Below are positions 3,914 to 21,990 of a stretch of 64,000 nt of DNA, one piece after another; within the stretch, counting starts at the first letter, position 1; each line of letters opens with the position of its first letter. The DNA is taken from NCBI GenBank assembly GCA_044892525.1, contig CM097885.1, positions 81,840,001-81,904,000 on the forward strand, given 5' to 3'. This DNA comes from Schmidtea polychroa. Lineage: Eukaryota. The notes beneath the pieces are model-generated. The model did not search any database. It saw only the letters and a program-made list of their open reading frames with translations, and had not been told where the DNA came from. The position numbers and the translations under genes are program-made.

Positions 3914-4369
3914 TATTAATTTATTTATAGTAATTATTTGTTTCTAATTATATTTTTTTATCTATTTACTCTAATTATTCTATACAACGAATATATTTCC
4001 TAATATACTATCTAAGCAAACTCCAAGCGAGCTCAGACCCAACCCTAACATTTCATCTCCTTAACAAGATTTTCGTCCCGAAAATTAAGGGGTATGAAGA
4101 AAACATGCGACACACTAAAAGTAAAATTCAAATAAAACATAAAATATGCATAATACATAATTATATACATGACACACACAGTATATCATAAAAATGCCCA
4201 CTGACTGATGCAAATAATAGTTCATAATCAAAGTTTATACTCACAAATGTTTATTATAAATGTTCCTAAGATTTGTAAAATACTGGATTGAGCTGTAGCC
4301 GAATGGCTAGTATTTTTTCCGCTGAATTCCACGGGCTTTCGGTGCCGATATGCAACCTTAGTTAACGTC

Positions 4370-5203
4370 CTGGTTGTAACTAACTACTAGGTTCTTCCTA
4401 GTGTTAATTTCACGATATATAATCGTGGAAACCATGTAGGTTCCCTCATCGATTTTTACCACATCCGTAGTTGGGTATTGCGAAACAGCCATTTCCTGAA
4501 TAGGCTTGACATCAAATTCTGTGACTCGGTGCTTACAACGCGTTGCCAGTCTTTGCCAATATCTTGGGTCTTCGTTATCCAGTTCCCTCAGTTGGCTTTT
4601 AGCTCTGCCTCGAAACTGGAGTTCTCCTTTTGTTAGAGGTTCTGATTTGATTTGTAAGGCGGCCGTAAGTTCCTCTTGTGGTGGCTGGTTTTCTGGACCG
4701 ATACTTTTGGCATCTATTTCCTGTGACTGTGCTTCATTGGGGCTAGTTCGCCCAGGACATCTGTGACTTCCTCTATCACCTTTGCAGTTGGCTGTTGTTC
4801 TTCTGTCAGAATATGTATTTTAAGGGTGAACTCTTCGTCTTCGTCACTTTCCCACGTAGCGTAATCTTCCTCATCAGCCAATGATACTGATGAAAGTTAG
4901 AATGTCTTCCTCGGTGATTCGTTGTAATTTTGTCGGTGTATGGTTATTCAAGCTTAAGCTCTCCATAGTTCTTTTCTTGCTTCCTCCTGTGACAAAGGGT
5001 TGCTTGGGTGTTGTCTGAATCTGTGATGAAATCACATTTTGTCGATTTCCTTGTATAATGTTGTCTACCCATTGATGCTTAATTTTCAAATAAATCGGCC
5101 TTATGGTCGTAACGTCATCTTCCGTCTTTAGATCTATTTTCTGACCTATTTTCGTTATAGTATTACCTTTTTGAGGTATTCTAGCCGATAATGCTCGTTG
5201 CAT
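4370..5203 (-). pseudogene. Degenerate ORF of unknown function, about 270 codons with frameshifts
   Basis: ORF 4874-5203 continues after frameshifts as ADEEDYATWESDEDEEFTLKIHILTEEQQ...QFRGRAKSQLRELDNEDPRYWQRLATRCKHRVTEFDVKPIQ...VSYNQDVN*; GC-richer than its flanks; no recognisable domain. Confidence 0.45.
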
Positions 5204-5385
5204 TTTTTCAAGTCTTGGTTATCGAGGCACTTTGCTGCCCCTAGATCTCTGATTCCTAAAGCTCGTTGGATTGTGAACTGAATGGTACTTAGCAAATACT
5301 TAAAATGCTAGACCGACAATAATGTGTTTTTGTCGCATAATTTTCGGATCCTATCTGCGCAGTCATATCCATCTTATTAAAGGAA

Positions 5386-5775
5386 TTGGTTGCTTACAAA
5401 GCATTTATGATTGAAAATTTGCAATCCTTAGATAATGAAACTTTTTCAGATCGGATTCATTCTGAAGTGCTAGATGATATCGTTCTACGATTGGAAGTTC
5501 TTGGACTTGTATTTACAGAAATTAATGATGACAGAAAATCCAGTGATAAATCAACAGATGTTGTAAATTTTATCAGCAACGATGAAGATGATCTAAATGA
5601 CATGGCCGATATTATCTGGCAAGCTCTCATCATCGATTTTCCAGGTTTCATTACTGATATAACTTTCAGTTGGTGGCTAAGGTTGTTTAGGAAAAGTATC
5701 AACATTTTTAGCTCCGAGAATATTACACACATAATCGAAGACCTATTTCCAACAATCTTTTCAAAACTATTTTAA
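5386..5775 (+). CDS. Unknown helical protein, possibly death-fold (CARD-like)
   Basis: 129-codon intronless ORF; the segment LDDIVLRLEVLGLVFTE...SSDKSTDVVNFI...IIWQAL loosely resembles CARD helix spacing (by eye only). Confidence 0.35.
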   Translation: MVAYKAFMIENLQSLDNETFSDRIHSEVLDDIVLRLEVLGLVFTEINDDRKSSDKSTDVVNFISNDEDDLNDMADIIWQALIIDFPGFITDITFSWWLRLFRKSINIFSSENITHIIEDLFPTIFSKLF

Positions 5776-5795
5776 AATATTTAAAAAAATTGGAT

Positions 5796-6612
5796 ATGAA
5801 TAGACATCAGCTCACACGAGATGGTAGCGCCGCGCCGGGGCCTAATAATTTCCAGATATTTGTACAAAATTCCGTAATAAATAGAACCCAATCCTTTTTC
5901 GTAAACACAGACATAAAAATTAATTGTCTCTCTCAGTCATACTGTATGTTGACTAATTACAAATGCCATTTTCTTTTTTCGTATAACGGCACCATGCTCT
6001 CAGATAGTCGTACACTAGGTGACTACGGAGTGACACCATACCGCGTCATTCATTGTTTTTTTGCCACTTTATGGCGGTTCCCCAGATTCGGAGAATGACA
6101 TTGGCAGCAACCACAACTCAACAAGGACTAATCGCAAGTCCAATAATCAGCGTTTGACTTATTTATGTCAATATTTTTTGGATGAGAATAACTCTCCCCT
6201 TATTTGGCTGATTGCTACTGAACTAGCACTTGAGGGAATTGAGGTCACCAGTTCGCGAGACAAATACTGTCGCATTTTACCGTTTATTCCTCCAACGATA
6301 CAGTGGCGGAACTTCAAAATTTGGGCCCCCGCGCAATGTAGAATATTTCCACTTAAATTTTTCGGTTAAAGTTTAATACATAGTTATTCACAGCAGCCGC
6401 TATTCAATGAGAGTTTTATGTTTGTAGGCAAATATAACTGCGGGAAAAGTTTCAGAAAATGATTGTAAATATTTTTTTGGTAATAATTTTGGGCCCCCTA
6501 TAGCTGGTGGGCCCCCGCAACGCAGGGTCCTGTCCACTAGTTACGCCACTGCAACGATATTAATTAATGTTGGGCTAGAACGCGTCTCTTTCATTCTAAA
6601 ATTTTCTTAGAA
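5796..6612 (+). pseudogene. Ubiquitin-like domain fused to an unknown C-terminal extension; frameshifted and MITE-interrupted
   Basis: FQIFVQNSVINRTQSF...FSYNGTMLSDSRTLGDYGVTPYRVIHCF aligns with ubiquitin (MQIFVK...[25 protein letters not shown]). Removing one T from the T7 run near 6056-6062 gives HCFLPLYGG and joins ORF 6061-6369. Removing MITE 6301-6551 extends the frame to ...PPTILINVGLERVSFILKFS*. Confidence 0.65.
6301..6551. mobile_element. hAT-type MITE
   Basis: TIRs CAGTGGCGGAAC / GTTACGCCACTG; perfect 8-bp TSD CAACGATA at 6293-6300 and 6552-6559. Confidence 0.9.
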
Positions 6613-7149
6613 CTATTGCATCCGTGTCTGTGTGTATGGCAGCATTGTGAATGTGTGCGTGTCATCAACAAAAAGAAAAATTCCTCCTGTCATAAATAAA
6701 TAAATTGAATTTGGGATTCGAAAATAAATAAAGAAATTACCGACATAAATTAAATTATTAACTAAGTTGGTCTACATAGAAAAATCTAAAATCTGTGAAT
6801 TTCCTGGCTAGTAATTTATCAAACTGCAGCATAATTTCCAACATACTTGCATAGTTATAAAAAATGACAGTAATTGAGCATAGTAGTAGCAGAACACGAC
6901 GATCACAGTAATCCCAGCCGATATTTAACTATGCACACTGACAATCTGAGTGAGTAAATTCCTCGTCCATTATTTACGGCCTACCTAATTTTGCCATCAC
7001 AATAGACAACAGTAGTGAAAATAAATTCGTTCTTCCTTCATTAGATTGCTCCATGACAACGCACACACCAAAAGAAAAATAAATTATATAAGGACGAACT
7101 GCCAATTATTTAAATTAAATTATTTCGACTAAGTCGAAAACGACAAAAC

Positions 7150-7360
7150 AAAAAATTCTTATTATTATTTTTATTATTATTATTATTATTATTATTTATT
7201 ATTTTTATTTATTAATATTATTATTTCTATTATTAATTAATATCATTATTAATATTCTTATTCTTATTTTTTATTATTTAATATTTATTATTAATATTAT
7301 TATTAATATTATTATTTATTTTTATTATTAATTAATATTATTATTAATTATTATTAGGGT
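7150..7360. repeat. (ATT)n-like low-complexity tract
   Basis: Run of ATT/TATT repeats. Confidence 0.8.
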
Positions 7361-7807
7361 TTGTTTAAATTATCTGTTTGTATATATAACTTTTGTATAA
7401 AATTAGATATATTTCTTTAGATATTTATCTCACTGTAAGTGTTATTTTTTCTTAGCATAATTTTGAAATTATAGCTCATATAGTCCTAGCACATTTCTCA
7501 TATTATCACTGGTGAACAAAATCTTCTGCTGTCTTTTTCAAACTTTGAAGCTTCTTAGCATTTAAAATGTAACACAAAAAAACTCATCTAACTAATAGTT
7601 GATAAAATATAGCAAGTCTTAGCTTTCCTGTTAAAGTGAAATTTATTCATTGATGTTAATTTCTTTTAGTCTTAGTTATGTCGAAAGGGCTTTTTGTTTT
7701 TGTCAGCGTTGAAAACTAAAAATAGTTAATCAATATCAAAATAATATCAACTAAATAAACAAACTAAAAATTAAAACTACAACTTTTATTTATAAAAAGT
7801 AAAAACC

Positions 7808-8368
7808 TTGTATGGGATGAGATGTCAAAACGATACAATATGTTTTGAGGATATAGAATTAGAAGATTGTGTGAAATTTATTATATGCGGTCATTCAATC
7901 TGTCGCGAATCTAATTCACAATTGATAATTAATTATAATGAGGACATTATCCTATGCCCATTGGACAGACGGGAAGTCAACCAATTATCCATTCACAATT
8001 GTGATGGCGTCCTTACGACGGTGTCAGTTAATGAGTTAAGGGACGAATTAGAGGAAACTCGTCAACATTTCATGAAATATATATTTGAAAGTCTTCCAAT
8101 TACGAAGAAAACGATCTCCAGTTACAATCGCAACCTAGTATTGCTCTAAACTCATTATAATAATTTGAACCAAATTATCCATAATTCAGTCGGAAATAAT
8201 GAAAAAACCCAGCCAGTTTCCACAAAGATAAAAGAAGAAAATAAAAGATTTGTCGATGAAATCAAATCATTAACAACAGAGGTTATTCCTGAATATAAGA
8301 ATGCTATTAAAATTTATTCGTATGTCGACTACCATTTTGAGAACCTCCGTAGTGAAGTTTTAATATAA
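7808..8368 (+). pseudogene. Degenerate RING-finger (C3HC4) protein with coiled-coil tail
   Basis: DTICFED...IICGHSICRES...ILCPLDRRE is a RING pattern with two Cys ligands lost; followed by helical segments (ORFs 7808-8149 and 8165-8368); no introns needed. Confidence 0.6.
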
Positions 8369-8587
8369 ACTCATCAACCCTTATGAAGCAATTTCGATGC
8401 CATCAGGGAATTTAATGAACTTTACATTTTCAATCTTGTTATTGATAAAAATTCCTCCAAAGCTTCATTCGACCTGCTTTTGAAATTATTTCATATTTCA
8501 TATTTTGCATTTCCTCGTATACATTTCAATATTCCATAACTCTCCAACGGTTGCAGCGATGTCTTTATCGATTTTGACAATCTCATC

Positions 8588-8715
8588 GAATGCCTAATTT
8601 GTAGAAAATCGACAAATGTCGACCTTTCGGTGTGCTCCATTGTGGCAATCATATATTGTGTATTGAATGCTTGGAGAAATGGGCGATTTTTCAGGTCATT
8701 GTCCAATAGATGGTT
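8588..8715 (+). pseudogene. Second RING finger with two frameshifts, not in the ORF track
   Basis: ECLICRKSTNVDLS / LHCGNHILCIECLEKWAIF / SGHCPIDG gives C-x2-C...C-G-N-H-x2-C-x2-C...C-P-x-D across two frameshifts. Confidence 0.6.
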
Positions 8716-8999
8716 TCAACCAATCAAATTCATTGATAAATGTTATCAGCACTCCAACAGCCGGATTGCATAATCAATATATAAAAAAGTTTTGATTTAA
8801 AACAGATCAAGATCTCTCTGCTATCGATCATTCCACATAGTAATGAGCTTATTGAAACATCACTAAGGGCAAATTTAAATCTCATTATAGAAGTTCTAGA
8901 ATGCTAACTTATTGACAAGAGTGCGGCGACTTACGAAGCTCTTCGAAACCGATTTTAAAAAGAAATTCAAATACTTTCTTTGAATTATTACGAAGTTTG

Positions 9000-11900
9000 T
9001 TTCGAAATTATAAAATTTAAATTTACATTTGCTACTTATAAAATTCTAATAATAGAGGTGGCCTTATGTCAGAGATAGAAATCATTCTTTCGTCTATGTG
9101 GTTCCAAACGAACTAATACTTCCACTCCCACCATGAATACTCGAGTACCTCGCTTGTCTATATCTCTACTTTTCATTGTTGTCACTGCTTTCTCTATATA
9201 TTTTTTTGTTTTATTTACGATTTCTACTCTGCTTTTTTATATATGTCCTAATCCAGAATATAAATTAATCTTCCGGTCATATACAATTTCAAAAGGTAAA
9301 ATATTTGTCGAGTTTTGTACTGTAGCATTCAAACTAAATTCAATCTTTGGTAACAATTTGCACCAATTATTTTCTGTTCTAATATCTGTCAATGATGTTG
9401 CCAGCATGGCCCGAACTGTTCTTATTATTCGTTCAGCTAAACCATTTGATTGATGTTGGTATGGTGAACTAAATTCTTGTTTTATGCCAAATCTTTTCAT
9501 CTAATCATGAAACATTGATCCTTCAAAATTTCTTCCTCTAGCTGTAAGAATGCTTTCTGGACTACCAAACCGATATATCCAATTATTCAGAATGACATTC
9601 AAAATCGTTGATTGATCCTGTGTACTTGTTGTTGATAAACTGACCAATTTACTAAAACGATCTATTATCATTATCCTATATTTCTTACTTGCTTTTGTTT
9701 CCATATATGCAATATCCACTACTATCTAAACCGTTCTTCTTTTCTTGGCAATAGGATTTCCTCTGTTCTTCTTTGATCAATCTTTCTACTAGCACAGATC
9801 TTGAATTTATTAATACATTTCGTAATACTCTAATTCATGAATGGCCAAAAGAAAAAATCTTTTATATAACATAAAGTCTTCATAATGCCCGGATGGCATA
9901 ATTCAATATGAAAATAATTTACCAATGTTTTTAGGTACGTGTCAGGTACTACAACTGCAACTTTTCCATCTGTATTAATCATCAATACGTCGTCTTGTAT
10001 CTGTAATATTTTTAAATTCTTGAAAATATTACTACTGATTGTTTCATAAGATATATGAGCCTCATTTCCATTAAGATGTGATATGATTTCTGAAATAATT
10101 CTGTCTTCGTTTTGCTTCTGTTTAATAATTTCCATAATGTTTGAACTTCCTTGTATACTATTTATATACCGAGTTCTACACTTTGTTTCTTTGGCGTCCT
10201 TGTGTTTCATCTGACAATGAGCGCATATCGTATTATTTAAACGAGACATACCATCTACATTTCCATGTTCTTCTTCTGGTATTTTGTTAAATCGGAGGAC
10301 CTCAAGTCGTTATTTCATGTGTTATTACTTTTTTATGACCTAAGTCAAACTGGATGCCATGAAAATGTTGCTAAACTTATATATTGAAGTACCCAACTTC
10401 GAATTCCTATCCAACTTAAGTGTCGATAACGCCAACTCTAGTCGATCAGAATTTGTAAATCTCTTAGTAACCAATGTGGCATCAATATTACTGACTTCTT
10501 TAAGCTCCATGCTAAATATTCTCATGGTGTCTACCCCTCCTATAAAATCTGGCTGAATTTTTCTGATAATAATAACATTCAATTCTGGACATTTGTTGTT
10601 CCATTTTGCAACGATATTTACGCTTCCGAGAGGTTTCTCATCTTCTTTTGAAAATACTCCACTCAACCGTACTCTGCGTTCCATCAATGCTGGACTGCCA
10701 ATCAATCTTCAACATTTTTCACTCATCACACTGATTGAAGCTCCTGAATCCCATAGCATTTCAATATAAAATTCATTTATTTCCATTGCACTCTACTTCC
10801 TATCGTCAATCTTCTTAAACATCACATCCTTCGCTACAACATTTAGTTTTTTATATTCATCTACTGTCTCGATCCTACTTACGAAATGTAAATAACATGG
10901 TCTTCTTGGTTCTTTTCTCTCAACATTATGCATGACTGGTTCTATCAATTCTTCTGATCTATCGTCGTCTTCTTCGAGTATACAATACATTCTTCGTTCC
11001 GGTCTTTGAGTATTACTTCTTTGACCTTCAACGGACACTCAAATCGCATATGATCACTTTGCCCACAACAAAAGCATTCACCATGTCTTAACCTTTCTTC
11101 TGCTGGCTCAGGTAAACCATAACATCTATTATAAACCTTTCTCGCGATATGTTTCATTGAAACTAACGGTGATGGTCCGTAGTTGTCCTTTCATTATATT
11201 GTTCTGCCACAGGTTTCACTTTATCAATTCGTCTTTCATTTCTTTCATTTCTATATTGATAACTTTTTTCTGGTTGACGACTTGAATATATTCTATTATC
11301 AAAAAATGATTTTTGAGTCCACTGCTTCTGGTTATCTTGAGCAACGTTTGCATATGTTGATTTAGCTACTGGCTGAACTTCTTCCAATCGTTCTTTTGCA
11401 TCATAACCTTCTCGTGTCTCATATACCTTTGCTAAATTTCTGATTTCTTCTCTCGTGAGGTTGGCCTTCGTTGATATATTTTCTTTCAAACGTTCGTTCC
11501 GAACTCTGTTGCACAAAACCATTTTAACAATATTCTCTTTTGAAATTATGCAGTCGAAAACCTCGTCAACGAGTTTCTTCACTCGTATCTTGAATGTAAC
11601 GAATCTTTCATCATGATTTTGTTTCACTGATGATAAGTCACAAATTTTATTTTACACATTTATTTCTTTTTTGTAAATGTGTCATTAAACCATTCACGAG
11701 CTTTTTCATTTGTTGTGGAGATGTCTTTAAATTCTTTCCAGAGAATAGATACCTCTTCAGACAATAACAAATCAAAAATACTTACTAAATTTAGATCATT
11801 AAGGATCATCCAATCTTCAATATCCTTGAGACATTTCTCTGCTTCTATCGTGCTTCGGCCCTCGAATCTTCTGATATTAAAATTTAAAACATCTTTTGCC

Positions 11901-12025
11901 TTTTTAGGTAAAGATTCCATAACCATCTTTCTATGCTGCGTTCTTGTCACTACTTGAATCGGCTCGATTTTCTCGGCGTGGTTCCCAGTTACAATTTCTT
12001 CACAAATCATAATAATAAATGACAA
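9000..12025 (-). mobile_element. Ty3/gypsy element A, degenerate: gag, zinc knuckle, protease and integrase; RT and RNaseH deleted
   Basis: gag 11163-12025; knuckle CFCCGQSDHMRFEC (10945-11157); protease LWDSGAS near 10745-10765; sequence jumps from ...FSNIFMASS to the RNaseH C-terminal remnant HGNVDGMSR; integrase HxxxxH, MDIA, TARG (catalytic D mutated), QSNGLAERIIRT (9237-10249). No LTR pair identified. Confidence 0.85.
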
Positions 12026-13709: not shown

Positions 13710-15045
13710 TGGGCTACTAACTACCTACTAGCCATACACATTTAAATATTTTCAGAATAATAAAAATTTAATTTTTATATTTTGGATTTTACTAAATACT
13801 AAGACTGTAGTTTAGAGTCCAACTGTGCAATTTGTATTACAGTAATTTTACTTACTCGCTTATATTATAGACTCTTATTTAATGTCGTTGGCACTACCAC
13901 ACTATCCGTTTTCTAAATGACACGCCTACTTTTCTTATAAGTTAATGTTATTTATCTTATTAAAGATCCAGTTCACGGCTGTTCACAATCTTATCAATTG
14001 GGCTTTGGTGTATTTGCTTTACCCCTAAGTTACCACTTTCTAATGAATTCATATTCTATTTCTATCCTACTAAATATTTATTGGCGGCGCTATGTGGCTC
14101 TGATTTTTACTAAATTACAGATTAGACATCGGGTTTGACATAATTTTATCAATCTATTATGTTTTTTAACCGTTGTTAATTTAGATCGTTGCCGTTCCAA
14201 AATTTGAGTGTATGGACGTTGTGAAATGGTTACTTCTTTACTGATATTCTAACGAGGTTTTATTTTCTTTTCTGGGTCCCTCTACCGCCGCGTCGACAGG
14301 GACTAAAACGCACCTTCGCCTGCGTGGACAAGTCCAGCAGGTTCGAGATACACCCGCCTTGTAATGTACGCAAGGAGTAGGACTATGGGATCGAGAGTCA
14401 CATTTTATTGGACTCCGACTACGAATAGATGGACACGCGCAGTATCTACGGGCATTTTAATATAATGTTTAACATACACTTGTCTTTATTTGATTAGTTT
14501 TTCTATAGTGATAACCGAAATCCTAGATTAGGGTGGTATATTTGCAATTTTCATCGTGATTAGCCTTCGTTACTGAGGGGAGGTTGTAACCACAACATTG
14601 TCGAAGCTTTTATTTACTTCCCTAATATGTTATTTGTTTAACCTTTACTAAAAATTTATAATATTTAGAATATATTTTTGCTACTATTTATTTTCCTTTT
14701 TCAGGATGTTACTCATTTAATTTAACTCTAGACTTTTTAATGATGTTCACCATCAGAGCAATGGCTGTGCCCCCCACCCTTTTCATGCCGAGTTTGTTTA
14801 TTTATTTGCCAATTTATTTATTAATTTATTCATTTGTTTATTTAATTTATTTATCTTTCAAGGACAAAAAAGAAAAGGGGATGTATTGTAATATCTTACT
14901 TTTTTATTTGTTTTTATTTTTATCTAGTTATTAAAAACTATATAGCGATAATTTACCAAGTAAATTGTCGCTATAGAAAATTGATTAAAAAAATAAAAAG
15001 TCAATATCGTTAAAGAAACAATTTTGTAAAATTATATAATCTCCC

Positions 15046-15190
15046 TCAAACTTACAATCAGCAATTGTTACCAAATAACTAGGAATATACCGATCAAAAT
15101 TACAATCAGCAATCCTTACCAAATAATTAGGAACATTCCGAATCAAACTTACAATTAGCAATCCTTACCAAATAACCAGAACCTACCAGT
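15046..15190. repeat. About 48-bp tandem repeat, 3 copies, inside the LTR
   Basis: TCAAACTTACAATCAGCAAT(C/T)(C/G)TTACCAAATAA... units start at 15046, 15094 and 15143. Confidence 0.8.
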
Positions 15191-15755
15191 AGTAATTATT
15201 AGCCACAGAGCTACGGGTATTAATAGAATCCATAACTAAAACACGTTTATTATAAAAACACCAAAATTATTAAAACAATTTATATCGTTAATTTGTTTGA
15301 GGAGTTTCTAAAAAATAATAATTAATGTACAACTTATACAGTATAAGTAAGGATTTCAGCATACATTCAAACATGCACAACATCATACCATTATTTAAAT
15401 ACAAATTACAAAACGCCTCACATCCCCCGCTTTTTGAAAACCTTTAACCACTCAATATTTCTCGTGACGGAACTTCCTTTTTCCAATTTTATTTCATAAC
15501 TTCATCATGAATCTTTTTAGTAATCACACCTGGACCCATGTATCTGTTATCACCTTTATTCCGAACATTTACTTTGATCAATACGCAACCTCCAATTTGA
15601 AATTCGCGATTTGTCGCCTGATTGATTTTTTCTTCTTCTACAATCTCTGAGAACCATTCACTATAAATCTTTTTCCCAAACACCATTTCAGCTGGAGTCT
15701 TCCTAATAGTTTTTTGAAAAGTTGAATCTTGAAATCCAAATTTTGTTATTATTTG

Positions 15756-17114
15756 TCAATAATCTGGCATCAAACTAATATTTTCTTTTATATTTTCAAT
15801 TTCTTTCGAGTTCTTTTGCCATATATTTTCAATATTATCAGTCATCAGTGTCAACAATCTTGTTTTTAATTTACCCATTTTAGGATTTTCATGAATCATT
15901 TGACATTGAACACAAGTTTCACATTCTTTTCTAGATAAAGCGAAGGCATTATTGTGGTTATCACCTTTTCTGTATTGAATCTCCGTGTCCAGACCACTAA
16001 GATGGTTAATCCAAGTTTGAAATTGTGGGGTAATAGCTTTCTTTGTCTTCATCATAAATGTAAAGGCTTTGTGATCCGTTCTCAAAATAAACTTTTTACC
16101 ATATAGATAATACTTAAAATGACCAGTAAAATAAAATATAGATAGTAATTCCTTTCTTGTTATACAATAACCCAACTCGTGTTTATTCATAGCTCGGGAT
16201 CCATATGCGATTACTCTTTCTTTACTTCCATCTTTTTGAGACAGAACAGCACCAATGCGGTCAAAACTTGCATCTGTATCCAAAATGAATGGCTTAGAAA
16301 AATCTGGGAACTTCAATACAGGTGTAGACGTCAATTTCAGTTTTAAATTTTTAAATGAAGTTTCACACTCATCAGTCCACATAAGCTTCTTTTGTTTACT
16401 TCCACATAACGCTTCTAATACTTTGGAATCTTTGGTGTAATTTTCTATAAATCTGCGATAGTAATTTGCCAAGCCTAAAAATCCTCTCAAACTTTTTACG
16501 CATTTAGGTCTTTCAAAATTTTTAATAGTTTCAATCTTGCTTTCATCCGTACGTATTCCATCTTCACCAATGATATGACCCAAAAATTTTACTTCTTTCC
16601 TTTTGAATTGACATTTTGCTGGACTTATTTTAAGATTTGCTAATTTAATCTTTTGAAAAACCTTTTCAATGGTACTATAATGTTCATTCAATGTCTTTGA
16701 AAATATAAGGATATCATCCAGATATACAATTGTTCCATTCCAATATAATTCTCCAAGAACCAAATTCATAAGTCTTTGAAATGTTGCTGGTGCGGCTGCT
16801 ATTCCAAATGGCATTCTGTTAAAGTAATATTGCTTACTTTTTGTCGAAAATGCTGTTTTCAATTTTGATGCATCATCGAGTTCTACTTGATAATAAGCAT
16901 TGCCTAAATCAATTGTCGAGAAAAACTTTGCTCCGTCAAGAATATCTAATAATTCATCAGTATTTGGAATGGGAAAAATCGGTCTTTCGGCTATATTATT
17001 TAAAGCACGGTAGTCCAAGCATATTCTTAAATCACTACTGTTTTTATTTTTAACACATACTAATGGAGAATTCCAAGGAGATGTACATTCTGATTTAATG
17101 CCATATTTCAACAT
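15756..17114 (-). pseudogene. pol: Gypsy reverse transcriptase and RNaseH, N-terminally broken
   Basis: SPWNSPL, RICLDYRALN, FSTIDLGNAYYQ, RMPFG, VYLDDILIFS, LDTDAS, KELL, TDHK motifs; last RNaseH Asp replaced (NAFALSR). Confidence 0.92.
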
Positions 17115-17142
17115 TTCTTGAATATTTCTTCAATTTTTTCTA

Positions 17143-17658
17143 TTAAATGTATAGGTTGTCGTCTTGACTACCTTTAGTAAGTATTTCATGCTTTAATAGT
17201 TCGGTTTTTCCAACATCCCATTTATGTTTCATAAAAATACCGTCAAACGTGGAAATTAAATTATTTATAATCTTATCTTCACTTATGTGGTTATTAAATG
17301 AATTTTCCATAATTGTATTTATTTCGTCTGTACGGTTTTCTATTTGCAATTGCATTCCAAATCTTTCGAGAAAATCTATACCTCCTATTAACTTTGGGTT
17401 TATATCTTTGGCTACAACGAATTCTACTTTTTTAATATCAGAAATTTTATCAACTTTTACATTTAATAAAGTTTTACCGCAAATTTCAATCGGGCTATCA
17501 TTCGCACATCTTAATTTTAAATTACTTGTAGTCATATTCAAATTTCCAAGTTTTTTAAAAATATTATAATCAATCACACTTATTTTAGCTCCAGTATCTA
17601 ATATGCATACTAATTTTACATTATTAATCATTACGGTAACACTGGGCCTTCCCTGCAT
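17143..17658 (-). pseudogene. Gypsy aspartic protease
   Basis: ILDTGAKISVI and LIGGIDFL motifs. Confidence 0.88.
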
Positions 17659-17866
17659 ACTATTATATCATTCCGTTTATCACGATTAAGAACATTTAGT
17701 TCATTAGAAGTTAGGGGTGGATCTTTAAAAACTTCATCCATACAAAATTTATTAATGTATATATTAATATAATTTCTATAATCAAAAACACCATCACAAC
17801 AGTTATCATTCAAACTATCACAATCATTCAAAATCATACAACCCTTACTCATATCATTAATTACCT

Positions 17867-18891
17867 TTAATTTATTGCTCCGATCGCCTCCTCGTGTGGT
17901 GGAGCATTCCCATTTGGGTACTCAAAATCAGCCTCTGGATCCTCGTCACCGAATGCAGCCACTGATTTATGGAATTTTCGACGTCTGCCTGGAAATAACT
18001 CATGGCACTGATGTTTGAAATGTCCAGATCTTTTACAATGGGCACATTGAATATTGGGGCATTCAGATCTTCTATGACCTTCTTCGTGGCACGCCCAACA
18101 TCGCAAAATTTGATTTGTTCGGACATGATCTCGCGAATGAAATTCCCTGGTATTATAAGGCTTACTTCTATTCATAGGTTTCCATCCATTTGAAATAGCA
18201 TATCGATGTTCTCTGGTAAGATCGCATTTGAATCTTGGATTATGTTGAGGTTCTCTTGTATATTCATCTTTGAATCTGGGATTAGCTTCTCATTCTCGAA
18301 TTGATCTGTTATCATAACTATATCTTGGTAAGCTCTTCTTAACACCATCAGCATAGCGTTGTGTTTTATTCATTGAAGCTACATCAGCATGAAATACATT
18401 AATTTCTTTTGAAACTTGATCGTGTCTCTTTAATCTTTCTTTCATTTCATCAAATGATTTTAAATCTTGCATTTTGAGATCTTTTTTAACTTCTTTATCT
18501 TCAAGCGAATTGAATAGCAAAAATTTCTTTAGTTCTTCATCAAGTTTATGCTTCAAAATATTTTTTGCAAGTTTCTCAATTTTTGAGCAGAATTCTTCGG
18601 CAGCCTCATTTCCTTGACGATGATTTAGCGCTTCGTTGAGATCATCGATAAGACTTCTGTTCTTAGAAAAAGCGTTTTTAATCTTTCTGTATAACGCAGA
18701 GTTTCATTAGTCAACTCATATTTCTTCGTTGAATTGATTGATAGAAAAGCTTTGACGAATTTGCTTCTGTATTCATCGACAATATTTGTCATCTCGAAGA
18801 ATCGTTCCGTTTCTAAGATAAAATCTTCCACGTCTGAATCCATGTCATATGTTTCTGGTGGCTTGATAAAATTTGCAATCGTGGTCGCCAT
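17867..18891 (-). pseudogene. gag: Gypsy gag, frameshifted, with two CCHC knuckles
   Basis: MATTIANFIKPPETY...; CWACHEEGHRRSEC and CAHCKRSGHFKHQC; the ATG is formed by the last base of the LTR plus the TG of the PBS. Confidence 0.85.
18878..18890 (-). other. Primer-binding site, tRNA-Arg-like
   Basis: Plus strand CGTGGTCGCCA abuts the LTR and matches the 3' end (...CGUGGUCGCCA) of metazoan tRNA-Arg(UCG) as I recall it. Confidence 0.7.
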
Positions 18892-19453
18892 ATTAGCCAC
18901 AGAGCTACGGGTATTAATAGAATCCATAACTAAAACACGTTTATTATAAAAACACCAATATTATTAAAACAAATTATATCGTTAATTTGTTTGAGGAGTT
19001 TCTAAAAAATAATAATTAATGTATAAGTAAGGATTTCAACATACAATCAAACATGCACAACATCATACCATTATTTAAATACAAATTACAAAACGCCTCA
19101 CAGTAATCTTGACAAACTAAACTGAATGACTTTCGAAGCCATGAAAAGAAATAATAACAAGGTTGTTTAATTAGTAAATTTTACATTTAATAAAAGTTAT
19201 AATAATTAATTGTATCGTTATACTATATCATTTTTAATTATTCCCTTTTTTCTGGTTGTATAAAGCAATACATACACGCACCCGATTGTCCCGCTACAAT
19301 ATTTTTTTAAACGGTGACTCTTTCGGGCTCTTCAAGTTTCTGATAACATAACATCACTCATTATACGATTATACTAATACTTAAATAATAAGCACATAAT
19401 CACAGGAACCTTCCGAACAATTACCATCATTTATTGACTCAATTTAATGTTTT

Positions 19454-20114: not shown

Positions 20115-21990
20115 CTATTTTGACATGTTTTGTCTCAACAACCATTGGTATTTAAAAGTTTGTTTTAACTTTCGTGCTGCAAACACATCTTTATCGTAAT
20201 TAAGTTCCACTAATGATGTAGTAGTGTCAAATAAATTGATGATTTCTATTTGGTCAGTAATCTGGCATCTACAACTCCATACAATATTTGTTAGGGTAGA
20301 ATATATATCGATTTTTTCCATCACCTGGATTTGGCTTACCGCGTATGGTAATTCAATCTTTTTCACGCCCGCATTTGTTAATAACATCAGCATTTTTGTC
20401 ACATATAATTTTTTGTTGATGTAGCTGACTGGTTTATTATTAATATCACTACTATAAATTTTTCCCAGATCTTTTTCAGTGTATTATGCGTCGCTTCCTT
20501 GTTATGATCTGGAGTTAACAGATACTGGTAATTTACCTTCCCACTTCCGCTTGGGAGGATTGTATCTACCATTTCCATTATTAGTCTTTCTTTTTTTGAC
20601 GGAAATAACAAATTTCTACGAGCTTCCTCAATGTCTTCACACGAGTAAATTCCACTTTGCGACAACTTTTCCAATGATGTAAAATTCACCAAATATTATA
20701 GTTCTGTCAATACAAAATTTTTCGGTGTCTATTTCTCGACGGTCCGGCAACGCAATCCATGATGCTGGTGTTAATCTGTATAGTGTTGCCAACAATCTAT
20801 TGCATTGTAGGACTTTCACAGGCTTCATAAATCGCAGCTTTCCATTTATATTGACGGGTAATTTGTTGGTGCATTGGTTGTCCTTTGTTAGTTTGACTGG
20901 TATAGCTTTACATTTGTAGCTATATAGTGCTTCACCGATGATTCTGCCAAACACCCCATTCTCTTTAATCAATATTGGTGCCACCAAATTGAGATTGGTT
21001 ATAGCCATTGTCACCCGATTTCTGAGTATTTCCTTATTGAGATTGCTATCGTTTGTAATAATTTCTCGGTATACATTTTCAACGGTATTTTGACCAAAAT
21101 GAAACAGATCATCTATCTTATTATTGAAGTAATTTGTCAATTTTAGATCTCGCGAATGTGTATTGAGCCTCTGTGATCAACTTCTGGGATACATATATCT
21201 CTTTACAGTTCGTCTCATAGACACTTTTTTCTAGTGTATTTTCTCAGAAATCGCATCCCATCTTCCACCTATGTTGACATTGACACTGTTGAAGTGTTCA
21301 TCCGTAAATGGGTGACTCTGGTCGCTGTACTCGTTGCTGGATCCATTCTTACCTTCTCAGACTTTTCCCGGATCTGCCCTCCCGTAATTTTTTTGAAACT
21401 CATTGACTTCAATTGCACTAAATTGCACCTTTTCGTATCGACTTCGTACACTAAGATTGATTCCACTGTCTGACAGCTATATTGTTTCATGTTGCAGAAC
21501 GGGTGTGTCCTTATCATCATCAAATGATCCATCGAATTCTCTTAGTTCCGACATGTACTTTTCCACCAGAACGGCTTAGTCAATTATCGCCTCGTGGTTC
21601 TCCTTGGCAATCGCCATTCTACTTTATAATCCCTCTCACAGTCGCCGACTCACGAATTTTGTGGTTTAATTTTGCTTGTAATTTGATATCTGCATTGATT
21701 TTTTCAACCCTAACCATTTGGAAAGGCCGCCATACAATTTTCTGGAATTATCTCTATCGATCTAGATATCGATTGCATTTTCATCATAGATGAGTGGCTC
21801 CATTTACCGCAATAAAATACAAAAGTGGTTCGTTTGACTGTACACTCCCTCACCTTTGATACAAACATAGATTCTTGATACACGTGATATTTTACTGGAT
21901 TTGTCACTTTGAACTTTACTGGGTATGCATCTGAACACTCTGCTACGTCCACTAACGAATATAATTAAATATTAATTTAAGTATTAATTT
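20115..21990 (-). pseudogene. Endogenous chuvirus-like envelope glycoprotein, decayed and near full length
   Basis: Collinear motifs typical of chuviral G: ECTVKRTTFVFYCGKWSHSS; NGDCQG; VENVYREIITNDSNLNKEILRN...GVFGRIIGEALYSYKCKAIPVKL...QCTNKLPV; QCNRLLATLYRL; SGIYSCEDIEEARRNLLFPSKK; IWEKF followed by a hydrophobic stretch. Several frameshifts and stops; no introns evident. Confidence 0.75.

What the first reader, a model, noticed from the sequence alone, without database searches (positions are those of the whole stretch)
5386..8760. Intronless ubiquitin/apoptosis-type cargo cluster (Ubl fusion, two RINGs, possible death fold) abutting a gypsy integrase
Seen: four same-strand reading frames needing no introns, ending within a few hundred bp of the end of element A's integrase, whereas host genes in this window are chopped by 41-52 bp introns. 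Lack of introns suggests passage through RNA, i.e. retroelement cargo. Established, as I recall it: Schmidtea has giant (about 30 kb) gypsy elements (Burro) reported to carry extra host-like domains. Inference: this is the accessory region of a giant retroelement encoding a ubiquitin-ligase/anti-apoptotic toolkit, analogous to viral IAP/E3 immune modulators. It could belong to element A (antisense cargo) or to a plus-strand element whose PPT and 3' LTR lie at 14866-19404.
Basis: partly seen in the sequence, partly recalled or inferred. Interest (0 to 1): 0.78.

Follow-up and report, generated by a model that had tools for sequence, protein, structure and literature searches.

The report
Retrotransposon rebuilding LTRs from host mRNAs
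The "cargo cluster" is two unrelated wrecks side by side: a broken host double-RING gene, and a scrap of an 8-kb jumping gene whose terminal repeats are built from copied host messenger RNAs starting with the host's spliced leader; the host-derived front end of its coat protein is likely cut off at a ubiquitin-like spacer.

Summary
The frames exist but are not one cargo unit, and no giant element is involved. Window 7838-9082 is a broken copy of a 533-aa intronless double-RING gene; all 9 family loci lie at C1 78-84 Mb without shared gag or LTRs. Window 5371-6300 is a decayed piece of ORF1 of a young 7.7-8.6 kb gypsy family. No death fold was found.

That family is the real finding. Its LTR is 8 nt, then a spliced-leader (SL) copy (30-42 of 42 nt), then host mRNA, a poly(A)-signal-like motif and a swappable host 5' cassette. 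The cassette ATG is in frame through the primer site into Gag in 27 of 27 copies. Two LTR types join SL exactly at the host gene's acceptor AG, and host introns are gone. A ubiquitin-like domain ending in GG precedes Gag, as in 24 of 24 distant relatives.

Inferred: template switches using SL as common homology, and deubiquitinase release of Gag. The scan had already noted host-mosaic/ubiquitin/Gag LTRs in this genome (BEL/Pao) and SL in dinoflagellate copia LTRs. My six literature searches found no direct report.

The parts
5371..5756 (+). It starts about 40 nt behind where the primer-binding site lies in related copies; LTR and primer site are lost here. Donor gene not found.
   Evidence: 12 genome matches at 80-92%; lies just behind the primer site in L116, L117, L119, L120, L123; map to L135/L132; no Pfam hit
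5763..5849 (+). Spacer before the Ubl. About 640 nt present in L121/L122 (a piece of a host BTB-kelch gene) are missing at 5757-5763.
   Evidence: host donor candidate L219 in a 585-aa frame, 88.6% nt
5850..6078 (+). Ubiquitin-like domain ending in Gly-Gly (codons 6073-6078); broken by a frameshift near 6056
   Evidence: Pfam; young copy aligns end to end with ubiquitin including GG; dN/dS 0.34 against a young copy; positions
6079..6300 (+). Linker and start of the Gag capsid domain (from 6160, DUF7041-like); the gag match stops a few bases after the MITE
   Evidence: 80% nt to 40 scored copies; full ORF1 in L015-L020; DUF7041 E 1.7e-5; dN/dS 0.04
6301..6551 (.). Small DNA-transposon-type insertion with short terminal inverted repeats and an 8-bp target duplication (6293-6300, 6552-6559); 'hAT-like' is recalled from the 8-bp duplication
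   Evidence: sequence
6560..7837 (.). Unrelated filler: AT microsatellite (about 7150-7390) and a 100-nt piece (7732-7835) of another dispersed repeat
7838..9082 (+). Broken copy of an intronless 533-aa double-RING host gene. It lacks the first 8 codons and about the last 95, and has 8 frameshifting indels and 3 in-register stops.
9237..12025 (-). Element A: decayed, unrelated gypsy (gag to integrase) that cuts the RING gene's 3' end; neighbour only

Best explanation
The window holds a broken host double-RING gene next to a decayed piece of an 8-kb gypsy retrotransposon whose LTRs consist of copied host mRNAs beginning with the spliced leader; these are likely swapped in by reverse-transcriptase template switches, and a ubiquitin-like spacer is predicted to let host deubiquitinases cut the host-derived front end off Gag. 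SHOWN: (1) the LTR is 8 nt, an SL copy, a host mRNA body with stop and 3' UTR, an A/T-rich motif with a poly(A)-signal-like core, a host 5' cassette with ATG and a short constant end; (2) the cassette ATG reads through the LTR end and primer site into ORF1 (host mosaic, Ubl-GG, Gag), with pol overlapping in another frame; (3) the pieces come from spliced and trans-spliced host mRNAs. INFERRED: (a) the first strand transfer sometimes lands on the 3' end of a co-packaged host mRNA; the enzyme copies it up to its SL and returns to the element's RNA at the SL copy beside the polypurine tract, replacing the front of the LTR; (b) 5' cassettes enter by a microhomology switch (ISOC-like) or by splicing of host exons onto the LTR end (ENGase-like and MANSC cassettes end exactly at exon donors); (c) only in-frame cassettes spread; (d) cleavage after GG makes Gag indifferent to what lies in front; (e) the A/T-rich 3' UTR may act as promoter. 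The RING gene lies beside it by chance.
For: Anatomy: 12 of 19 fetched stretches held a full element of 7,692-8,586 nt, with an exact 5-bp target duplication in 11 of 12 and 0-6 LTR mismatches; order PR-RT-RH-IN. SL: 7 SL RNA genes found, control 0, with GT donor and an Sm-site-like run (Sm motif recalled). Young LTR nt 9-50 match 32 of 42; in 2.2 million scanned positions every score of 28 or more was at an LTR start, best elsewhere 27. 31 distinct closer SL starts score 30-42 of 42; 7 of the 31 are solo LTRs with exact 5-bp duplications, and 2 are 3' LTRs behind the family's polypurine tract, one with 80-86% pol. About 12 different sequences follow the SL. Both donors located show SL joined exactly at the host acceptor AG. 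One contig of presumed-RNA run X1 matches the host gene (7 differences in 867 nt) and carries SL at that acceptor. Donors: lipin-like 97% with 8-nt microhomology; ENGase and MANSC exons 1-2 with 48- and 47-nt introns removed; ISOC 93-97%. Frame: 27 of 27 recognised ATGs (5 cassette types, 30 loci read) are in frame and 24 are open. Ubl: GG kept in 32 of 33 contexts, dN/dS 0.11-0.39. 24 of 24 distant relatives with the clade's double Cys-His tail and 60 or more residues upstream have hydrophobic-x-GG before the capsid; 7 of them also carry the primer-site peptide. Relatives carry histone H2A, 5'-nucleotidase, cohesin SA or CNOT1 pieces in front. Ubiquitin as a host-cleaved processing signal is established in pestiviruses (PMC8310069, passages). 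RING: 10 of 10 protein matches lie at C1 78.1-84.1 Mb; 5 of 8 paralogs have one 520-533 aa frame.
Against: No start or end of the element's RNA was measured; only contigs were served, none on record as RNA, so U3/R/U5 limits are inferred. The currently spreading subfamilies have a drifted SL copy (31-33 of 42) and most near-exact SL starts are old: 22 of 31 showed neither an exact duplication within 1.5 kb nor a polypurine tract. SL-based exchange may therefore be rare or finished. Only 2 of about 12 SL-led bodies were traced to a host acceptor; a third search was saturated by copies. Run X8 (kind unknown) also shows the SL loose end, as expected from LTR copies. The young Ubl has lost ubiquitin's basic tail residues (LPLSGG against LRLRGG), so cleavage by a deubiquitinase is untested. 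An internal Met lies about 35 codons behind the primer site, so the host ATG is not strictly needed. The 27 copies are only 5 independent captures, 3 with a verified donor (chance 1 in 27 to 1 in 243), and some loci are duplicates. Donors of the MSKIND and MFPFSK cassettes and of window 5371-5756 were not found. Expression of the RING gene was not tested.
Confidence: 0.68

Rival explanations
1. SL serves as the R repeat: the element's RNA starts at, or is trans-spliced to, an SL, and the first strand transfer uses SL homology in every cycle. U3 would then be only 8 nt and the promoter internal or borrowed.
For: The SL copy starts exactly at SL position 1 after a fixed 8 nt in all subfamilies seen. 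The first SL hairpin is kept or improved in the young copy. Earlier scan notes propose this for dinoflagellate copia elements (unchecked).
Against: Routine use of true SL would reset the copy to the host sequence, yet young copies share the same 31-33 of 42 version. L056 has a poly(A) run joined at the junction motif, which fits a short repeat there. No SL-joined element contig appeared among the loose ends shown (165 rows not shown).
Confidence: 0.17
2. The SL copy and host pieces are passive scars of sloppy reverse transcription. The Ubl is a tolerated passenger or a degradation/localisation tag, and Gag is released by the element's own protease.
For: Microhomology capture is common in LTR elements (PMC5131818, passages). 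Relict SLs mark retroposed mRNAs in dinoflagellates (PMC6050394, passages). The Ubl body diverges faster than the capsid.
Against: GG is kept in 24 of 24 distant relatives while the rest of the Ubl decays, and two relatives carry near-canonical ubiquitin at the same place. All cassettes are in frame. SL recurs with about 12 different bodies at one fixed position.
Confidence: 0.12
3. One reading: one accessory region of a giant Burro-type element encoding a ubiquitin-ligase/anti-apoptotic toolkit.
For: Burro elements carry BIR, BCL2-like, MATH and Ubi2/SUMO-like domains (PMC6431247, passages). The RING gene has no intron in its coding part, so a remote retroposed origin is not excluded.
Against: Element size 7.7-8.6 kb. 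The RING family is confined to 6 Mb of one chromosome, without the element's gag or LTRs. No death, BIR or BCL2 domain.
Confidence: 0.03

Closest known systems
LTR-mediated retrocopies (Tan et al. 2016, PMC5131818, passages read; includes maize Bs1 and yeast Ty chimeras)
   Same: Spliced host mRNA pieces joined to an LTR element, microhomology at some junctions, mosaics of several genes, further rounds of copying.
   Different: There the capture replaces internal ORFs and gives non-autonomous copies. Here it sits inside both LTRs and at the front of ORF1, gag-pol stays intact, the host ATG is in frame with Gag, and the LTR starts with SL joined at host acceptors.
Burro / GYPSM1 giant gypsy elements of planarians (review PMC6431247, passages read; the primary paper was not held)
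   Same: Gypsy, planarian-type host, ubiquitin-like domain in a Gag-containing ORF, host-like domains.
   Different: Over 30 kb with one ~4,900-aa ORF that begins with Gag and has Ubi2 between MATH and BCL2, plus env. Here 8 kb, Ubl in front of Gag, no BIR, BCL2 or env, and captures inside the LTR.
Ubiquitin insertions of cytopathogenic pestiviruses (PMC8310069, PMC13517609, passages read)
   Same: A captured ubiquitin unit in a polyprotein directly before a viral protein; host hydrolases cut after GG to give the authentic N-terminus.
   Different: Those are sporadic insertions of near-intact ubiquitin in an RNA virus. Here it is a fixed, diverged, clade-wide feature of a retrotransposon, and cleavage is only predicted.
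Relict spliced leaders of dinoflagellate retrogenes (PMC6050394, passages read)
   Same: A DNA copy of SL joined to a host mRNA proves passage through trans-spliced RNA.
   Different: Those are retrogenes. Here the SL-mRNA copy forms the LTR of a mobile element, behind a fixed 8-nt terminus, and is amplified with it.
ta-TRIM of taeniid tapeworms (PMC4558846, passages read)
   Same: Flatworm LTR element interacting with SL trans-splicing acceptors.
   Different: There a solo LTR splices in cis to a host acceptor as an alternative promoter; the passages read report no SL or host mRNA inside the LTR.

Membership tests
Ty3/Gypsy LTR retrotransposon | Paired LTRs TG...CA with short target duplication | tested here: met
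   12 of 19 stretches held full elements; exact 5-bp duplication in 11 of 12
Ty3/Gypsy LTR retrotransposon | Domain order PR-RT-RH-IN | tested here: met
   Pfam on L027 pol
Ty3/Gypsy LTR retrotransposon | Primer-binding site and polypurine tract | tested here: met
   TGG-starting site right behind the 5' LTR and purine tract before the 3' LTR. The priming tRNA (Leu) is recalled, not matched to a tRNA gene here.
Burro/GYPSM1 | Length over 30 kb | tested here: not met
   7,692-8,586 nt
Burro/GYPSM1 | One ~4,900-aa ORF, Gag first, with MATH, BIR, BCL2, ankyrin, env | tested here: not met
   ORF1 about 930-1,030 aa with Gag last; separate pol; none of these domains
LTR-mediated retrocopy | Host introns removed | tested here: met
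   ENGase, MANSC and Rab-like donors
LTR-mediated retrocopy | Microhomology at switch points | tested here: inconclusive
   Present at the lipin 5' and ISOC 3' junctions; the ENGase and MANSC 3' junctions fall on exon donors instead
LTR-mediated retrocopy | Capture replaces internal ORFs, element non-autonomous | tested here: not met
   Open ORF1 through Gag in several copies and an open pol in one
Ubiquitin-fold processing signal | Ubiquitin fold ending in GG directly before the released protein | tested here: met
Ubiquitin-fold processing signal | Cleavage after GG by a host protease | not testable with these tools
   Needs N-terminal mapping or an in vitro assay
Death-fold domain (5371-5756) | Six-helix death/CARD/DED profile or fold | tested here: inconclusive
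   No Pfam hit; low-confidence model, no PDB match
RING E3 ligase (7838-9082 family) | RING zinc-finger profile | tested here: met
   PF13639 E 1e-8, two stretches in L004; weak TRIM32/TRIM23 RING matches
IAP-type E3 | BIR domain with C-terminal RING | tested here: not met
   No BIR in L004

The most novel reading that the evidence does not exclude
A clade of animal gypsy elements has given up a fixed LTR. It keeps only short termini and uses the host's spliced leader as a universal recombination handle to refill its LTR with whole host mRNAs. It borrows start codons and signal peptides from host 5' ends, and relies on a ubiquitin-GG cut to free Gag from whatever was captured. This would be a standing, SL-driven mRNA-capture cycle that amplifies and shuffles host exons across the genome, and the clade may be confined to hosts that trans-splice.
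Probability: 0.4. Interest if true: 0.9.

Novelty: new variant of a known kind. Interest (0 to 1): 0.74.

Why it matters
LTRs are normally conserved promoter and terminator cassettes. Here almost the whole LTR is replaceable host mRNA while the element stays young and mobile. If the mechanism holds, SL trans-splicing has a side effect: it gives every trans-spliced mRNA a shared 42-nt homology that a retroelement can use, linking RNA processing to exon shuffling and gene-fragment amplification (one cassette has at least 40 copies at 99-100%). Host-gene pieces inside a piRNA-targeted element class (PMC8532177, passages) could also draw silencing onto the donor genes, and they will mislead annotation and RNAi design in planarians. 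The conserved Ubl-GG is a directly testable case of a retrotransposon using host deubiquitinases for Gag maturation. The cluster as first described does not matter: it is a chance neighbourhood.

Tried and rejected
Giant-element cargo: rejected by size, copy distribution and flanks. The translated comparison was cut to its first 30 rows; it showed only weak integrase hits in 2 of 8 RING regions.

Homologue searches with the RING protein and with Ubl-Gag found nothing within the default length range; this is no evidence of absence, and the profile-free library search later found the clade. The atlas look-ups could not be run. Both structure models were too poor to use (pLDDT 49 and 33).

A deletion in L052/L069/L070, first read as a lost intron, is flanked by a 7-nt repeat and is better read as a template slip. 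The 49-nt GT-AG loss in L057 is not a host intron. No element copy was found in the ENGase intron behind the captured exons, so gene-trap capture is unproven.

No RNA holder was on record, so expression of the element is open. Two metagenome scans gave 0 and 2 loci, both ending before an LTR, so SL starts in other hosts could not be checked. Stretches placed from four earlier scan notes on other host-mosaic LTR families (5 stretches, positions approximate) showed no SL match of 25 of 42 or better.

Literature searches (listings and abstract starts) gave no report of SL-led LTRs or Ubl-GG-Gag in a flatworm gypsy. Repbase, subscription journals, the primary Burro paper and supplements were not seen, and the family may be deposited there.
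Full report
1. Observation. The four plus-strand open stretches exist, but they are fragments of two broken sequences. Window 7780-8800 has 31 matches; all long ones lie on C1 at 78.1-84.1 Mb at 82-90% identity, and the rest match only a 50-nt repeat end. Five of 8 paralogs hold a single 520-533 aa frame with two RINGs. A protein search gave 10 matches from 47 candidates, all in the same 6 Mb. Paralogs share a core of 1.6-1.9 kb, up to 3.8 kb among the youngest, and no gag or LTR of the Ubl element. The window copy has 8 frameshifting indels and 3 stops and is cut at 9082 by element A. It is a pseudogene of a locally duplicated, probably lineage-specific host family; no outside homologue was found and its expression was not tested.

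Window 5763-6300 behaves differently: 136 candidates on all chromosomes, 40 scored, about 80% identity. In those copies the Ubl is in frame with a DUF7041-like capsid and a Cys-His tail, followed by an overlapping protease frame. Window 5371-5756 lies just behind the primer site in older copies of the same family. No death-fold evidence was found.

2. The element. Of 19 fetched 10-kb stretches, 12 held a whole element of 7,692-8,586 nt; 11 of the 12 had an exact 5-bp duplication, and LTR pairs differed by 0-6 substitutions, so insertion is recent. Pol order is PR-RT-RH-IN. An exact LTR/primer-site pattern gave 33 sites, control 0, of which 30 were read. Their LTRs are 783-1,365 nt and differ in blocks.

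3. The 3' block of the LTR is a host 5' end. Five cassette types were seen. ENGase-like: host exons 1-2 from about 66 nt before the ATG, 48-nt intron removed, ending at the exon-2 donor. MANSC with a predicted signal peptide: single host locus among 22 matches, 47-nt intron removed, ending at an exon donor. ISOC-like: exon 1, 93-97%, ending in microhomology. Two further types have no donor found. In 27 of 30 loci a cassette ATG was recognised; all 27 are in frame with ORF1 and 24 are open to the LTR end; 3 loci lost the ATG by deletion. These are 5 independent events, not 27. An older copy carries a sixth cassette in the same frame up to the LTR end.

4. The front block is a host mRNA led by SL. 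In L066/L067 the block is the 3' coding part and UTR of a single-copy lipin-like gene (97%, 8-nt microhomology; the gene name is recalled from its motifs). LTR nt 9-50 match the 42-nt SL exon of the genome's 7 SL RNA genes at 32 of 42. Among 2.2 million positions of fetched, partly redundant DNA, all scores of 28 or more were LTR starts. Two pattern searches found 18 and 15 closer starts, controls 0: 31 distinct places scoring 30-42 of 42, 7 of them solo LTRs with exact duplications and 2 of them 3' LTRs behind the family's purine tract. About 12 different sequences follow the SL. For both bodies traced, SL is joined exactly where the host gene has its acceptor AG: L184 against L188, and L177 against a Rab-like gene whose exons are spread over 23 kb. 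A third search was saturated. One contig of run X1 (RNA by guess) matches host L188 and ends in SL at that acceptor; X2 showed nothing, X7 an internal piece, and X8 (kind unknown) also showed SL. The LTR body in L135, whose ORF1 module is the window's, belongs to one of the SL-led groups. SL trans-splicing is documented in planarians (PMC10899757, passages).

5. ORF1 and the Ubl. The stretch between primer site and Ubl is also a mosaic. Contigs of the presumed-RNA runs match two of its segments and run on into other sequence, and an older subfamily carries a BTB-kelch piece. The Ubl aligns with ubiquitin to its last two glycines. GG is kept in 32 of 33 contexts, some of which may be the same locus; dN/dS is 0.11-0.39 for the Ubl and 0.04-0.20 for the capsid over six pairwise comparisons. 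A library search gave 2,796 hits, best 150 listed; 127 aligned to the capsid. Of 35 with the double Cys-His tail, 24 have 60 or more residues upstream, and all 24 have hydrophobic-x-GG there; of 24 comparable others, 10 do, mostly the best scoring. Their front ends include histone H2A, 5'-nucleotidase, cohesin SA and CNOT1 pieces, and 12 of these 48 contain a translation of the primer site. Their hosts are unnamed. The layout is therefore old and not limited to this genome's family.

6. Mechanism. Shown: anatomy, RNA origin of the pieces, SL junctions, frame, GG conservation. Inferred: the first strand transfer lands on a host mRNA, and copying returns to the element at the SL copy; 5' cassettes enter by microhomology or splicing; in-frame ones are selected; host deubiquitinases cut after GG, as for pestivirus ubiquitin insertions (PMC8310069, PMC13517609, passages). 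A/T-rich, T-biased DNA marks planarian stem-cell promoters (PMC10558129, passages), which could explain how a 3' UTR serves as promoter; that step is speculative. Against: no RNA ends were measured; the young SL copy has drifted; only 2 bodies were traced; the Ubl tail lacks the basic residues; an internal Met exists.

7. Comparison and novelty. It is a gypsy by all tests run, and not Burro (PMC6431247, passages). It works like LTR-mediated retroposition (PMC5131818, passages) but differs in position, autonomy, frame and SL use. Searches found no direct report; Repbase, the primary Burro paper and supplements were not seen. Earlier scan notes describe host mosaics with a ubiquitin spacer before Gag in other LTR families of this genome and SL copies in dinoflagellate and Perkinsus elements. 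These are unchecked leads; I saw no SL in stretches placed from the four same-genome notes. No note matched this family by sequence.

8. Verdict. The cluster as proposed is not real. The Ubl fragment leads to a real and unusual element. New variant of a known kind; interest 0.74; confidence in the full mechanism 0.68, in the anatomy about 0.95.

Noticed in passing
window 20115-21964 (-): Broken frames matching a viral fusion glycoprotein family (Pfam PF24664, E 3e-17 and 2e-7): an env-like gene of another element or an endogenous viral piece.
   Followed up: no
window 15197-19102 (-): A 3.9-kb gypsy with paired 212-226 nt LTRs (92%) and a purine tract at about 15423-15432, inserted into other LTR-like sequence starting near 14880.
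   Followed up: partly
L060/L048 and L063 cassettes vs hosts L096, L147: Two of three verified 5' cassettes end exactly at a host exon donor and join the same LTR position in the same phase, which suggests splicing rather than template switching; no acceptor AG was found at that position in any copy.
   Followed up: partly
L056 and L057 LTRs: L056 has a run of about 24 A at the junction between front block and cassette; L057 lost 49 nt from a GT in the junction motif to an AG in the cassette's leader.
   Followed up: partly
L152 (C1 26.94-26.95 Mb): The two LTRs of one element differ by a 152-nt tandem duplication, with only 3 substitutions.
   Followed up: no
G000:C309:12622-29918: Five LTR/primer-site junctions spaced 1.7-6.9 kb on one small contig: a tandem array or an assembly artefact.
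   Followed up: no
L023:3051-3052 flank: Contigs of three runs show a similar flank beside the LTR start, and the same repeat occurs elsewhere; possibly a preferred target repeat.
   Followed up: no
L100/L013 (C1 226.5 Mb): Older copy with a 337-nt LTR and a Trp/Ser/Asn-rich ORF1 segment that continues the host transcript seen; it resembles GW182 (recalled, untested).
   Followed up: partly
L121:835-1170: ORF1 piece resembling the ARM region of TRIP12/UFD4 (recalled; no Pfam hit).
   Followed up: no
G000:C1 81.63 Mb (L168): The ISOC-like donor gene lies about 200 kb before the window; probably coincidence.
   Followed up: no
window 4301-5273 (-): Decayed repeat with one other match on C2 at 72-77%; it stands where the element's LTR would be.
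   Followed up: no
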